64,000 nucleotides of DNA from a virus (Duplodnaviria; Caudoviricetes), in the IMG/VR virus record IMGVR_UViG_3300032305_001907, positions 5,616-69,615 of that record. The stretch is one strand, 5' to 3'. The notes under the pieces were generated by a model. The model made no database searches. It saw nothing but the letters and a program-made list of their open reading frames with translations, and was not told the DNA's origin. Made by a program: the position numbers and the translations under genes. Positions 6,099 to 16,750 of this stretch are shown here, piece after piece (the first letter of the stretch is position 1; each line of letters opens with the position of its first letter).

Positions 6099-6409
6099 TC
6101 CTCGTCGTCGTCTTCCTCGCGGATCTCTCGCAACTGATTTTCAACTTCTTCCATTATGTATGCCTTGGCAATTGCTTGCACTTCAAACACCAGCATCTTC
6201 ACTGGCTCAAAATTTACATCGGGCTGCCTATAGACCGACTCGCAATAAATGTGAGTTTCGTCAAGGCGGCCATTCTTGAAGCATTGCTTCTCGACCAAAT
6301 GCCACTCGCTTGTACTCCTATGTTCATTGGATGAAAGCACGGCAAGCGCCTTCAGCACTCCAATGCCATCTTCGTCCTCTTTTTCTATGACGTGAACGTA
6401 TTCACTCAT
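6095..6409 (-). CDS. Hypothetical protein
   Basis: 104 aa from MSEYV, overlapping upstream stop. Confidence 0.6.
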   Translation of the reverse strand: MSEYVHVIEKEDEDGIGVLKALAVLSSNEHRSTSEWHLVEKQCFKNGRLDETHIYCESVYRQPDVNFEPVKMLVFEVQAIAKAYIMEEVENQLREIREEDDDED

Positions 6410-6656
6410 TGGACTGCCGCTTTTCAACCATCTTAATCACACGATTTGCCCATGCCCTACCGGCAGCGCCACCCCATAATTCTCCTGCGATAAATCCCGC
6501 ATCATCCTCTCCACCTGCTAAATTCTTTGCATGGCGAGAGAAGAATGCTGCCATTCGCTTAATTGTCTCATAGCTTACACTTTCGCCATTGGCCAATGAA
6601 GCAGCGCGAGCCACTCCACTCCCAATGCCCTGTTTCCCGGCCTCCTGCGTGGTCAT
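6402..6656 (-). CDS. Head-module conserved domain; probably translated as the -1 frameshift extension of the DUF6496 ORF (frame open to 6761)
   Basis: ARAASLANG..SYETIKRMAAFFSRH...LWGGAAGRAWA; the domain-like sequence continues upstream of the ATG (FSPPSSVRAAARRGLELRKKYGKGG) with no start codon. Confidence 0.7.
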   Translation of the reverse strand: MTTQEAGKQGIGSGVARAASLANGESVSYETIKRMAAFFSRHAKNLAGGEDDAGFIAGELWGGAAGRAWANRVIKMVEKRQSNE

Positions 6657-6723
6657 GCCGCCTTTGCCATACTTCTTGCGTAGTTCCAGGCCGCGACGCG
6701 CTGCAGCCCGTACAGACGATGGA

Positions 6724-6761
6724 GGGGAGAACGATTCAGCGTCTCCCCTTAGGCCTTTGGG
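6724..6761 (-). other. Programmed -1 ribosomal frameshift signal (C CCA AAG + 6 nt + stem-loop)
   Basis: Heptamer at 6755-6761, spacer GCCTAA, hairpin GGGGAGACG-CTGAAT-CGTTCTCCCC at 6724-6748, GAGGAGG 7 nt upstream. Confidence 0.75.
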
Positions 6762-7042
6762 GAGTCTTCCTCCTCTTCTTCCATGCCCTCTTCCTCTTCC
6801 TCCTCTTCTTCGCCCATGATCGTCAGGACGTAGCTATCCCAATAGGCATCGCTCTTGCCCTGCATGCTCATGCCAGCTTCCGACAAGGCAATGGCAATGG
6901 CACGGCGACGATCAGTGATTTTTTCGCCACTGCTGCTCTTGAGCGTGCCAGCTTTGAATTCCTTGAGCACCCTGCGAATCTTGGCTTGCTTTGCCTTTTT
7001 GCCTTTAGGCATTGCAGCATCTTCGCGGCTATCGTCAGTCAC
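6749..7042 (-). CDS. DUF6496-like basic protein with acidic tail
   Basis: KIRRVLKEFKAGTLKSSSGEKITDRRRAIAIALSEAG matches the DUF6496 pattern; poly-Glu C-terminus. Confidence 0.7.
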   Translation of the reverse strand: MTDDSREDAAMPKGKKAKQAKIRRVLKEFKAGTLKSSSGEKITDRRRAIAIALSEAGMSMQGKSDAYWDSYVLTIMGEEEEEEEEGMEEEEEDSPKA

Positions 7043-14888: not shown

Positions 14889-15377
14889 ATGCCATCTCCC
14901 ATTTCCTTTGTTTTTACTGCAGAAGAAAGGCAAGCAGCAATGGAAGAAGGCATGCGTCGGCAATCCGTGAACGAGGCAAGGGGCCTTCGTGGACGGAATG
15001 GTGGCGCCTCCTTTGGCAGCAAGGCCCTGGAAATCCATCTCTTAGGCGCAGCAGGGGAGATGGCTGTGGCTTCCCACTTGGGAATGAAAAGCTTTTTGTA
15101 TCAAGCCACTGAAGCCGAGCGCGGATCATGCGACTTGCCAGGCATTGATGTGAAAACACGCAGCAAACATCAATACGATTTGATTGTGCAAAAAAATGAA
15201 CCAGCGGAAAAGAAGTATGTTTTGGTTACAATACAAAATAAGACCACTCTGGTCCATGGCTGGATCCACGGCGGAGAGGCCATGCAAGAAAAGTTCTGGG
15301 CTGATCCAGCAAAAGGTCGTCCTGCATATTTCGTGCCCAAGGAATATCTCCACCCCATTGATACATTAGTCGTATGA
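14889..15377 (+). CDS. Putative PD-(D/E)XK nuclease-like protein
   Basis: GAAGEMAVA...DLPGIDVKT pattern; translationally coupled to terL. Confidence 0.45.
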   Translation: MPSPISFVFTAEERQAAMEEGMRRQSVNEARGLRGRNGGASFGSKALEIHLLGAAGEMAVASHLGMKSFLYQATEAERGSCDLPGIDVKTRSKHQYDLIVQKNEPAEKKYVLVTIQNKTTLVHGWIHGGEAMQEKFWADPAKGRPAYFVPKEYLHPIDTLVV

Positions 15378-16750
15378 AGCTTTCTTGCTCAGACTTTGCA
15401 CAGCACGCCCTCAGTATTAATTTGTGGCCTAAGCAACGAGAAATCTTAGACGACCTTTTTGAAAACAACATCAGCCATTCCATCTGGGCAATGGGAAGGC
15501 GAAGTTCCAAGACGTTTATGGCTGCGCTTTGTGCTGTCTATATGTGTTTTGTTAAGGAGCCGGTGTACAGAAGGAGAGTGCGAAAAGGAGAAAAGTGGTA
15601 CATCGTCACTGTTGCGAACGATTTGCAACAAGCAAAAATTGCACTGAACAACATCCGGCAATTAATCACTGCCAGCCCTCTCGCCAAGGAGATCGTGCGA
15701 GAAACTGCAATGGAAATCGAGATGAGTAATAATTGCATATTTCAAGCTATTCCGGCATCAGCCCGTGCATCACGAGGCAAAGCAGTTGCAGGTATCATCC
15801 TTGACGAGCTTGCCTTCAGTCTTGAGGGCGATGCAAACCGTGGCGCCAAAGCAATCTTTGATGCTCTCTCTCCATCCATTGCTCAGTTTGGTCGTGATGG
15901 CAAAATTATTGAACTGTCCTCCCCTTGGCTCACGGATGGTCTTTTTTACGACCACTTCATTCAAGCCAAAGAAGGTGACATGCAAGGCATGCAAGCTTTG
16001 CAAGTGCCAACATGGGAGATCAATCCTAATTTGCCATGGGGATGTGACTTCCTAGAGAATGCTCGCAAGAAAGATGAAGAAGCATTCTGGGTGGAATTTG
16101 GTGCTCAATTCAGGGGCAATCAATCTTGCCTGCTTGCCAGTGAAGTGGTGGAAGCTGCAATCAATAAAGAAAGAACCGTGCTCCTCCCCAAGCGTGAACT
16201 AATCGGCACTTATGTATTGTCTCTTGACCCTGCTCGTGGTGGTGTGGGTCGAGATGATTACACTGCTTGCATTGTGCATTACGAAGGAGAAGTATTGGTG
16301 GTAGATAAGTTCCATACGTTTCCCGTGGACTTTGAGATCAATGGGAAAAAGGAAGTAAGCATCAGGGCAGTAGAAGAATGGATACGAGAGCATCACAAGA
16401 TATACACCTTTGAGAGTATTGTTCTTGACCAGTACAATAGTTCTGCCACCATTCAATCCCTATCTGCCGACTACCCCATTGAAGAGCTAACGTGGTCCGT
16501 TAGTACCAAGATGAAGGCGTTCAGCAAGATGAAGGAGCTTTTCAACTCTGGCCTCATTGAACTGTATCGCCATGAAAAAGCAGTGAAGCAACTGAAGAAC
16601 TTGGGCGTGGTGTATAAAGCATCAGGCCAATGGTCAATTACTGGCGGTAAGGAAAGCGGCGTAGATGACCATGCCTTTGCTCTTGCCGCTGCAATATTGC
16701 AAGCATCAAAAGAAGATGACATCAATTGGATCGCAAGCCTGGTTCGTTAA
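15374..16750 (+). CDS. terL: Terminase large subunit
   Basis: Walker A-like GRRSSKT, Walker B ILDELAF, LSSP coupling motif, nuclease SLDPA, DQYN, DDHAFALA. Confidence 0.9.
   Translation: MKLSCSDFAQHALSINLWPKQREILDDLFENNISHSIWAMGRRSSKTFMAALCAVYMCFVKEPVYRRRVRKGEKWYIVTVANDLQQAKIALNNIRQLITASPLAKEIVRETAMEIEMSNNCIFQAIPASARASRGKAVAGIILDELAFSLEGDANRGAKAIFDALSPSIAQFGRDGKIIELSSPWLTDGLFYDHFIQAKEGDMQGMQALQVPTWEINPNLPWGCDFLENARKKDEEAFWVEFGAQFRGNQSCLLASEVVEAAINKERTVLLPKRELIGTYVLSLDPARGGVGRDDYTACIVHYEGEVLVVDKFHTFPVDFEINGKKEVSIRAVEEWIREHHKIYTFESIVLDQYNSSATIQSLSADYPIEELTWSVSTKMKAFSKMKELFNSGLIELYRHEKAVKQLKNLGVVYKASGQWSITGGKESGVDDHAFALAAAILQASKEDDINWIASLVR

What the first reader, a model, noticed from the sequence alone, without database searches (positions are those of the whole stretch)
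6402..7042. Programmed -1 frameshift fusing DUF6496 to a downstream head-module domain
Seen: the DUF6496 ORF ends TCC CCA AAG GCC TAA, containing a perfect X XXY YYZ heptamer (C CCA AAG, 6755-6761). A 6-nt spacer leads to a GC-rich stem-loop (6724-6748), and GAGGAGG lies 7 nt upstream. The -1 frame is in register with ORF 6402-6656 (105 nt) and supplies ...KGLRGDAESFSPPSSVRAAARRGLELRKKYGKGG, which looks like the true N-terminus of that domain. There is no ATG/GTG/TTG in this frame back to the previous stop. Established: slippery A AAG-type sites with an upstream SD and downstream hairpin drive bacterial -1 shifts (dnaX, IS3). Known phage shifts are mostly in tail chaperone, capsid or tail genes; one in a DUF6496 head-accessory gene is not one I recognise. 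The LRGD motif right after the shift suggests protease release of the second domain.
Basis: partly seen in the sequence, partly recalled or inferred. Interest (0 to 1): 0.85.

Follow-up and report, generated by a model that had tools for sequence, protein, structure and literature searches.

The report
Conserved -1 frameshift in cyanophage head gene
A small head-module gene of an S-CBS4-like cyanobacterial virus almost certainly uses a programmed backward ribosome slip to add a second, widely conserved domain to part of its protein, and the signal is kept in about 90 distinct relatives but is not annotated in the one sequenced isolate checked.

Summary
On the minus strand the DUF6496 ORF (7042-6749) ends TCC CCA AAG GCC TAA. 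The in-frame heptamer C CCA AAG lies at 6761-6755. A 7-8 bp hairpin starts 6 nt downstream and GAGGAGG lies 7 nt upstream.

- **Frame:** the -1 frame is open and has no ATG/GTG/TTG until ATG 6656.
- **Relatives:** 95 distinct junction sequences were collected, including the isolate Synechococcus phage S-CBS4. Of these, 87 are split, always with the second domain in the -1 frame. All 87 carry an in-frame X XXA AAG heptamer (A AAA AAG 49, G GGA AAG 30, C CCA AAG 8) at one fixed position. In 83 of 87 the 0-frame stop follows one codon later. The other 8 are in-frame fusions without heptamer.
- **No start:** 64 of 87 split forms have no canonical start in the -1 frame.
- **Selection:** the 31 codons between shift site and ATG 6656 give dN/dS 0.08 in the -1 frame.
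- **Hairpin:** it is stronger in split than in fused forms and one pair covaries.

This is a new member of a known kind (dnaX / lambda G-GT type). The downstream domain is a widespread head-protein and polyvalent-protein module with no Pfam family. The proposed cleavage at LRGD is untested.

The parts
6749..7042 (-). ORF-A, 0-frame product. It holds a DUF6496 domain, a short helix and an acidic poly-Glu tail ending ...DSPKA. It is 97 aa from GTG 7042, or 87 aa from ATG 7012.
   Evidence: PF20106, E 1.2e-6; fused homologues aligned
6769..6775 (-). SD-like GAGGAGG 7 nt upstream of the heptamer. It is a possible 5' stimulator and also codes part of the Glu tract.
   Evidence: GGAGG or GAGG lies 7-10 nt upstream in most G GGA AAG and C CCA AAG relatives; no SD-like 4-5-mer was found in 14 of 21 A AAA AAG relatives.
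6755..6761 (-). Slippery heptamer C CCA AAG (X XXY YYZ in the 0 frame).
   Evidence: An in-frame XXXAAAG sits at the same position in 87 of 87 distinct split junctions. All three forms are named as highly shift-prone in E. coli in PMC5009743.
6749..6751 (-). 0-frame stop TAA, one sense codon after the heptamer.
   Evidence: The stop is one codon after the heptamer in 83 of 87 junctions. TAA 28 and TGA 17 of 47.
6723..6749 (-). Downstream hairpin. The core is GGGGAGA / TCTCCCC (6748-6742 with 6730-6724), closed by an A-U pair (6749 with 6723), with an 11-nt loop and a 6-nt spacer from the heptamer.
   Evidence: 90.8% of cells are paired. Pair 5 is A-U 27, C-G 10, U-G 4. Mean dG is -15.4 in split forms against -7.4 in fused forms (p 6e-5).
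6657..6755 (-). The -1 frame coding stretch (GLRGDAESFSPP...KGG, 33 codons) with no start codon of its own. It holds the conserved start of domain 2.
   Evidence: dN/dS is 0.077 in this frame against 1.5 and 3.9 in the other two. Distant relatives match from about residue 6 of this stretch.
6402..6656 (-). The rest of domain 2, the ORF as a gene caller would call it (84 aa from ATG 6656). The whole -1 part is 6755-6402, 117 aa. The predicted trans-frame product is 213 aa from GTG 7042, with base 6755 read twice.
   Evidence: ATG 6656 is CTG (Leu) in other populations and Leu in relatives.

Best explanation
**What it is.** This is a genuine programmed -1 ribosomal frameshift cassette of the bacterial dnaX / lambda G-GT type, in the head module of an S-CBS4-like cyanosiphovirus.

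**How it works (inferred).** Ribosomes translating ORF-A reach CCA (P site) and AAG (A site), slowed by the hairpin 6 nt downstream and perhaps by an SD-like run upstream.
- Most ribosomes read one more codon and stop, giving the short DUF6496 protein.
- A fraction slip back one base (CCA to CCC, AAG to AAA) and read on in the -1 frame. They make a fusion of about 213 aa: DUF6496, an acidic linker and domain 2.

**What is shown.**
- All signals are present in the sequence.
- The heptamer and hairpin are conserved and substituted in ways that keep them functional.
- In-frame fused orthologues exist.
- The start-less -1 stretch is under protein-level selection.

**What is inferred.**
- That slipping really occurs, and at what efficiency.
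- That the purpose is a fixed ratio of short to long product.
- That domain 2 places the long form in or on the procapsid. Elsewhere this domain is fused to portals, prohead proteases, capsid proteins and polyvalent-type enzymes.
For: 1. **Signals** are present as described.
2. **Split relatives are always -1.** Two samplings of viral contigs, one anchored on each domain, gave 63 and 72 split loci with domain 2 in the -1 frame, one locus in +1, and 17 and 2 in-frame fusions.
3. **The heptamer is universal.** All 87 distinct split junctions carry in-frame A AAA AAG, G GGA AAG or C CCA AAG, 26 nt before the Phe codon. In 83 of 87 the stop follows one codon later. These are the three heptamers named as highly shift-prone in E. 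coli (PMC5009743).
4. **No other route to translation.** 64 of 87 have no ATG/GTG/TTG in the -1 frame upstream. In L009, L010, L050, L051 and L054 that frame is open for only 4 codons before the shift point.
5. **Coding constraint.** dN/dS is 0.077 in the -1 frame for the 31 codons upstream of ATG 6656.
6. **Domain boundary.** The domain in about 3100 distant clusters begins at sF.PP, upstream of ATG 6656.
7. **Hairpin.** It is more stable in split than in fused forms (p 6e-5). One pair shows A-U / C-G / U-G exchange through a synonymous Gly third base paired with a Ser/Ala first base. The isolate S-CBS4 has A AAA AAG GGC TAA followed by GGGGCGA/TCGCCCC.
8. **Heptamer turnover.** The heptamer type switches repeatedly on the domain-2 tree yet always stays among the three forms.
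Against: - There is no experimental evidence: no junction peptide, reporter or ribosome profiling.
- The hairpin arms encode the conserved residues R-G-D and F-S/A-P, so part of their conservation is protein-level. Only one pair covaries, and 5 distinct sequences carry a C-U mismatch there.
- The local folding energy is not exceptional.
- The SD-like element is not conserved in the A AAA AAG class.
- A AAG shiftiness depends on the host having a single tRNA-Lys(UUU), which I did not check (PMC5009743).
- A few relatives have lost domain 2 altogether (L115, L120, L129, L130) and one is off by one base (L114). The long product is therefore not indispensable in every lineage.
Confidence: 0.88

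Rival explanations
1. There are two ordinary genes. Domain 2 is made on its own from ATG 6656 (MTTQ...), and the heptamer and hairpin are coincidental.
For: ATG 6656 exists in the window with a weak AAGG a few bases upstream. Gene callers produce such ORFs, and the ESM Atlas holds the sequence from that Met.
Against: - That codon is Leu in the nearest relative L003 and in nearly all others. It is CTG in other lake populations.
- The 31 codons upstream are under strong purifying selection in the -1 frame.
- Those codons form the first conserved helix of the domain in distant relatives.
- 64 of 87 relatives have no start in that frame.
Confidence: 0.04
2. Domain 2 is made by termination-reinitiation, or by non-canonical initiation at the Leu codon that overlaps the ORF-A stop (NTRA), without slipping.
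For: The 0-frame stop always overlaps the -1 Leu codon. In 17 of 47 distinct junctions the stop is TGA, so that codon is CTG, TTG or GTG.
Against: - 28 of 47 have TAA, which makes the codon CTA or TTA, not a known start.
- This does not explain why an in-frame X XXA AAG heptamer is kept in 87 of 87 junctions through three different sequences.
- It does not explain why fused orthologues exist.
- It does not explain why L040 and L135 keep the heptamer with the stop moved away.
Confidence: 0.05
3. [quoted passage not shown]
For: The site lies next to a low-complexity GAA/GAG tract where contigs break. A AAA AAG relatives carry a run of six A.
Against: - The same arrangement occurs in 87 distinct junctions from many independent metagenomes and in a cultured isolate.
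- It is almost always -1 (135 loci against one at +1), and domain 2 is under purifying selection.
- No indel was seen at 6749-6765 in contigs of three other studies.
[quoted passage not shown] From my own knowledge, that is too short for polymerase slippage.
Confidence: 0.03

Closest known systems
E. coli dnaX -1 frameshift cassette (A AAA AAG, upstream SD, downstream stem-loop)
   Same: - 49 of 87 relatives have the identical heptamer, and the window has the sister heptamer C CCA AAG.
- A stem-loop lies 6 nt downstream.
- The window has an SD-like run upstream.
- The mechanism relies on weak pairing of tRNA-Lys with AAG (PMC5009743).
   Different: - In dnaX the shift leads to an early stop and a shorter product. 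Here it opens a 117-codon extension.
- The proteins are unrelated.
- There is no match to any Rfam family, including frameshift elements.
- The SD-like run is not conserved across the family.
Phage lambda G/GT tail assembly chaperone frameshift (G GGA AAG) and its analogues in tailed phages
   Same: - G GGA AAG is the heptamer of 30 of 87 relatives.
- The shift occurs near the end of a small upstream ORF and gives a C-terminally extended fusion beside a more abundant short form.
- Some lineages have in-frame fusions instead.
   Different: - The site is in the head module, between portal and protease/scaffold, not between the major tail and tape-measure genes.
- The protein families differ.
- A conserved hairpin is present here.
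-1 frameshifts in phage head genes (T7 10A/10B; Lactobacillus phage A2 major head protein, cited in PMC10885494 and PMC5009743)
   Same: A head-module gene gains a C-terminal extension by -1 slipping, which gives two related virion or assembly proteins.
   Different: Those cases affect the major capsid protein itself. Here the gene is a small DUF6496 accessory protein, and the extension is an independent, widely shuffled domain.
Polyvalent / virion-packaged multidomain phage proteins (Iyer et al. 2017, PMC5512222)
   Same: In other phages domain 2 is fused to InPase, 2H phosphoesterase, Topo I-like, Hva1_TUDOR and methyltransferase domains, and to portal, prohead protease and capsid proteins.
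   Different: Here the domain is joined to its partner by recoding rather than by a continuous ORF. The protein has only two small domains. I did not find domain 2 named in that paper.

Membership tests
Canonical bacterial -1 programmed ribosomal frameshift cassette | In-frame X XXY YYZ heptamer on which both tRNAs can re-pair in the -1 frame | tested here: met
   C CCA AAG at 6761-6755 in the ORF-A frame. 87 of 87 distinct split relatives carry A AAA AAG, G GGA AAG or C CCA AAG.
Canonical bacterial -1 programmed ribosomal frameshift cassette | The -1 ORF downstream of the site encodes a conserved protein and cannot be reached by ordinary initiation | tested here: met
   dN/dS is 0.077 in the -1 frame. 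There is no canonical start in the window or in 64 of 87 relatives.
Canonical bacterial -1 programmed ribosomal frameshift cassette | Stimulatory RNA structure 5-9 nt downstream, supported by covariation | tested here: met
   A 7-9 bp hairpin lies 6 nt downstream, with 90.8% of cells paired. One pair shows A-U / C-G / U-G exchange. The hairpin is stronger in split than in fused forms. Support is moderate, because the arms are also coding.
Canonical bacterial -1 programmed ribosomal frameshift cassette | Upstream SD-like stimulator at a fixed distance | tested here: inconclusive
   GAGGAGG lies 7 nt upstream in the window. An SD-like run is common in two heptamer classes, but none was found in 14 of 21 A AAA AAG relatives.
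Canonical bacterial -1 programmed ribosomal frameshift cassette | Orthologues in which the two ORFs are fused in frame | tested here: met
   181-204 aa proteins holding DUF6496 plus domain 2. 8 distinct fused junctions lack the heptamer.
Canonical bacterial -1 programmed ribosomal frameshift cassette | Trans-frame protein product demonstrated | not testable with these tools
   This needs mass spectrometry, a western blot, a reporter or ribosome profiling.
Canonical bacterial -1 programmed ribosomal frameshift cassette | Host decodes AAA and AAG with a single tRNA-Lys(UUU) | not tested
   The host genome was not identified here. The window encodes no tRNA.
Pfam DUF6496 (PF20106) | Score above the gathering cut-off | tested here: met
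   29.3 bits against a cut-off of 24, E 1.2e-6, residues 16-56 of ORF-A.
Rfam frameshift elements (dnaX, IS1222 and others) | Match to a curated covariance model | tested here: not met
   No relevant hit at E up to 10 in 6600-6900. The only hit was a chance snoRNA match at E 3.
Tail assembly chaperone G/GT | Position between the major tail protein and tape-measure genes | tested here: not met
   The locus lies between the portal plus transferase cluster and the DUF2213 protease and major capsid protein.

The most novel reading that the evidence does not exclude
Domain 2 is a general procapsid-docking, or packaging-and-ejection, module. Phages attach it to whatever they want inside the head: portals, proteases, polyvalent enzymes. 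In S-CBS4-like phages the frameshift acts as a dosing device, tagging a fixed small fraction of an abundant DUF6496 protein for incorporation. The variants with a mini-ORF, a fusion or a deletion of domain 2 would then be natural steps in tuning that dose.
Probability: 0.25. Interest if true: 0.7.

Novelty: new member of a known kind. Interest (0 to 1): 0.6.

Why it matters
- **Annotation.** It corrects two 'hypothetical proteins' in the isolate S-CBS4 (gp018/gp019) and many related lake and marine cyanophage contigs. These appear to be one recoded gene.
- **A natural test series.** The relatives offer three heptamers, hairpin variants, stops moved away, in-frame fusions and mini-ORF forms. 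This would allow study of -1 frameshifting on cyanobacterial ribosomes, for which I know of no characterised cassette (own knowledge).
- **An unnamed domain.** It draws attention to a very widespread, strongly conserved phage domain with no Pfam model (about 3100 clusters at 50% identity). Its partners point to a role inside the capsid.

Tried and rejected
- **Naming domain 2 failed.**
  - Pfam gave nothing for it.
  - A PDB profile search gave nothing.
  - Foldseek against PDB gave nothing at E <= 0.001.
  - The VIA-align wide search gave only generic helical bundles, best Z 5.0.
  - The ESM Atlas gave unnamed viral clusters and a weak DUF6321 lead at 0.88, which the Pfam scan did not back.
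- **Rfam:** no frameshift family matched.
- **Folding energy alone:** z -0.33, so it is not used as evidence.
- **Sequencing runs:** only contigs were available.
  - They show no indel at the site and the ATG/CTG polymorphism at 6656.
  - One contig from an RNA library spans 6695-6839. It cannot prove transcription and says nothing about translation.
- **Literature:** searches for DUF6496, S-CBS4 and cyanophage frameshifts found no description.
- **Not run:** complex prediction of domain 2 with portal or protease was left out as peripheral to the finding. The host tRNA-Lys content was not checked because the host is unknown.
- **Tree limits:** the domain-2 tree is short and probably recombinant. 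The counts of switches (17 heptamer changes, 4 fused/split changes) are upper-end estimates, and well-supported branches force fewer.

Full report
**Observation.**
All genes here run on the minus strand. ORF-A (7042-6749, 97 aa from GTG, or 87 aa from ATG 7012) matches Pfam DUF6496 at E 1.2e-6, above the cut-off. It ends ...GAC TCC CCA AAG GCC TAA.
- The heptamer C CCA AAG lies at 6761-6755, in the X XXY YYZ register.
- The stop follows one codon later.
- Six bases after the heptamer a hairpin begins, with arms GGGGAGA and TCTCCCC, an 11-nt loop and a closing A-U pair (6749-6723). It appears in the minimum-energy fold.
- GAGGAGG lies 7 nt upstream of the heptamer.
- The -1 frame is open from 6827 and runs into ORF 6656-6402. 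It has no ATG, GTG or TTG before ATG 6656.
- The composite motif occurs once in the window, against 0.02 expected.

The folding energy of the region by itself is unremarkable (z -0.33).

**Context.**
The window is a phage syntenic with Synechococcus phage S-CBS4. The order on the minus strand is:
- portal (14824-12740), with large terminase on the plus strand upstream (15374-16750);
- a phrog_24776 protein;
- a block of transferase and methyltransferase genes (12030-7039);
- ORF-A and domain 2;
- a 110-aa ORF, followed by an oppositely oriented HTH regulator;
- DUF2213 head protease/scaffold (5753-4563);
- a virion structural protein;
- the major capsid protein (3985-3071).

**Homologues of the -1 product.**
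The 117-aa -1 translation finds 444 protein clusters. They fall into two groups.
- Proteins of 181-204 aa carry DUF6496, an acidic linker and domain 2 in one frame.
- Calls of 103-139 aa start at assorted, non-homologous points.

The conserved protein starts at R-G-D-A-E-S-F-S-P-P, about 30 residues upstream of the window's Met. At that Met position relatives have Leu.

**Systematic test.**
I fetched 80 viral-contig loci anchored on domain 2 and 80 anchored on DUF6496, plus the contigs of two proteins and S-CBS4. I then classified each junction by script.

| Sampling | Split, -1 frame | Split, +1 frame | In-frame fusion | Other |
|---|---|---|---|---|
| Anchored on domain 2 | 63 | 0 | 17 | 4 loci cut short |
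| Anchored on DUF6496 | 72 | 1 (L114, one base short) | 2 | 4 with domain 2 deleted, 1 cut |

Pooled and de-duplicated, there are 95 distinct 120-nt junctions.
- 87 are split. All 87 carry an in-frame heptamer: A AAA AAG (49), G GGA AAG (30) or C CCA AAG (8).
- The AAG codon always begins 26 nt before the Phe codon.
- In 83 of 87 the 0-frame stop follows exactly one codon later.
- 8 are fused and have no heptamer.
- 64 of the 87 split junctions have no canonical start codon in the -1 frame upstream of the shift point.
- In L009, L010, L050, L051 and L054 that frame is open for only four codons before the shift point.
- In L040 and L135 the usual stop is replaced by a sense codon, yet the heptamer is kept.

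S-CBS4 itself reads AGA AAA AAG GGC TAA followed by GGGGCGA...TCGCCCC. Its record annotates two separate hypothetical proteins, gp018 and gp019. The second starts at an internal GTG.

The three heptamers seen are exactly those the Atkins et al. review names as highly shift-prone in E. coli (PMC5009743).

On a tree of the domain-2 coding DNA the heptamer type changes many times but never leaves this set. Fused forms appear in up to four places. The tree is short, and well-supported branches force fewer changes.

**Is the start-less stretch translated?**
I compared 50 distinct split loci over the 31 codons from the Arg codon to the codon before ATG 6656.

| Frame | dN | dS | dN/dS |
|---|---|---|---|
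| -1 (domain 2) | 0.075 | 0.97 | 0.077 |
| 0 frame of ORF-A | 0.258 | 0.167 | 1.5 |
| third frame | 0.320 | 0.082 | 3.9 |

Serine at one position even switches between TCN and AGY codons. An exhaustive search gives about 3100 clusters at 50% identity, with matches beginning at query residues 4-9. Their consensus begins sF.PP..Vr.AArRGLELR. ATG 6656 would therefore cut off the first helix, which is helix 92-108 of the AlphaFold model. In contigs from other lakes base 6656 is mostly G on the plus strand, which makes the codon CTG, Leu.

**Hairpin.**
- In a gap-free alignment of 47 distinct split junctions, the 9-pair helix is paired in 90.8% of cells, against 55-75% when the partner is slid.
- Four pairs never vary.
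- Pair 39-55 shows A-U 27, C-G 10, U-G 4, G-U 1 and five mismatches.
- That exchange couples a synonymous third base of Gly with a Ser/Ala first base. This has no obvious protein-level reason.
- Over the pooled set the same 33 nt fold to a mean of -15.4 kcal/mol in 70 distinct split sequences and -7.4 in 8 fused ones (Mann-Whitney p 6e-5, not corrected for relatedness).
- The Arg codon is AGG in 69 of 70 split forms but varied in fused forms. Part of that is forced by the overlapping stop.

I take the hairpin as real but moderately supported. The SD-like run is common upstream of G GGA AAG and C CCA AAG, yet no SD-like 4-5-mer was found in 14 of 21 A AAA AAG junctions. Its role is open.

**What the proteins are.**
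AlphaFold on 53 fused homologues gives two helical domains joined by a disordered acidic linker (mean pLDDT 82, residues 70-83 below 50).
- Neither Foldseek on PDB nor VIA-align gives a meaningful match.
- Against predicted viral structures, domain 2 recurs inside prohead proteases, XkdF-like proteins, portals (GTA, Mu gp29-like, an archaeal tailed virus), and Dps-, ParB- and HAD-containing proteins.
- Sequence relatives place it at the N-terminus (70), middle (46) or C-terminus (35) of proteins of 115-1547 aa.
- Its partners include InPase, 2H/LigT phosphoesterase, Topo I-like, Hva1_TUDOR, methyltransferase and Phage_capsid domains.
- That is the repertoire of virion-packaged polyvalent proteins (PMC5512222).
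- In Vibrio phage 1.089.O it heads a 331-aa protein next to the scaffold-like gene and the major capsid protein gene.

Domain 2 has no Pfam model. Its function is unknown. A role in placing proteins in the head is an inference from these fusions.

**Mechanism proposed.**
Tandem slippage of tRNA-Pro and tRNA-Lys on C CCA AAG, promoted by the hairpin, yields a short product of 97 aa and a long trans-frame product of about 213 aa in a fixed ratio.
- Fused lineages make only the long form.
- Mini-ORF lineages (L001, L004, L009-L011) have lost the DUF6496 core but keep the last 25 or so codons, the heptamer and the hairpin. There the cassette is the only visible route to domain 2.
- Four loci have lost domain 2 altogether.

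**Rivals.**
Independent initiation at ATG 6656, reinitiation at the overlapping Leu codon, sequencing error or pseudogene, and polymerase slippage each fail to explain the universal, position-fixed, sequence-variable heptamer and the selection on the start-less stretch.

**Comparison and novelty.**
The cassette works like dnaX and lambda G-GT and uses their heptamers. It is not a member of any Rfam family and is not a tail chaperone by position. I found no paper describing it. PRFect's survey text lists capsid, tail-chaperone, polymerase and other cases but nothing like this. It is a new member of a known kind: well supported by comparison, and unproven at the bench.

**The LRGD idea.**
R-G/D-D is kept in fused and split forms of this clade but lies outside the domain as defined by distant relatives. 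Cleavage there is possible and untested.

Noticed in passing
L083:3699-4351 (S-CBS4, HQ698895.1 12873-13525): The isolate's gp018 and gp019 are annotated as two hypothetical proteins. gp019 starts at an internal GTG, 12 codons inside the conserved domain. The junction carries A AAA AAG GGC TAA plus a compensated hairpin, so the two look like one recoded gene.
   Followed up: yes
L001:1199-1623; also L004, L009, L010, L011: These are mini-ORF variants. The DUF6496 core is deleted and a 25-35 codon ORF starts right after the methyltransferase gene. It keeps the SDAYWD helix, G GGA AAG, the stop and the hairpin. In L009 and L010 the -1 frame is open for only 4 codons before the shift point.
   Followed up: partly
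L012, L013 (0-frame ORF of 312 codons ending ...MPPKG): An extra segment of about 110 aa sits between DUF6496 and the shift site. C CCA AAG and the hairpin are kept, the hairpin through G-U pairs.
   Followed up: no
L115, L120, L129, L130: Domain 2 is deleted. ORF-A ends in a Lys-rich tail plus TAG. L120 keeps only a remnant of the C-terminal helix of domain 2 in the -1 frame.
   Followed up: partly
L114:1213-1290: This is the single exception to the -1 rule. The run before the A-tract is one base shorter than in its relatives, which puts domain 2 at +1. It may be a sequencing error or a real mutant.
   Followed up: no
L002:1-687; L057, L062, L063 (0-frame ORFs of 228-235 codons or more): In some relatives the DUF6496 reading frame runs on, without a stop, from an upstream Cys-rich protein. 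The frameshift product there would have three parts.
   Followed up: no
window 6656: The ATG that makes ORF 6656-6402 callable is a variant of this genome. Other lake populations and relatives have CTG or another Leu codon there.
   Followed up: yes
window 6402-6755 (-) and P0122-P0270: Domain 2 belongs to a very large, strongly conserved phage domain family of about 3100 clusters at 50% identity, with 50-70% identity among the 150 closest cluster representatives across unrelated architectures. It has no Pfam model and no solved fold match. Conserved motifs include GIGSGV.RA, FF.RH.KN and LLWGGD.G..WA.
   Followed up: partly
window 6402-6409: The next gene (MSEYVHV..., S-CBS4 gp020-like) starts at ATG 6409 inside ATGAGTGA. 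It overlaps the domain-2 stop by 8 nt, which suggests translational coupling to the frameshifted reading.
   Followed up: no
alignment A1, columns 1-21: Heptamer class correlates with upstream context. G GGA AAG and C CCA AAG mostly follow an acidic tail with GGAGG or GAGG 7-10 nt upstream. A AAA AAG mostly follows a basic or Cys-containing tail without an SD-like run.
   Followed up: partly
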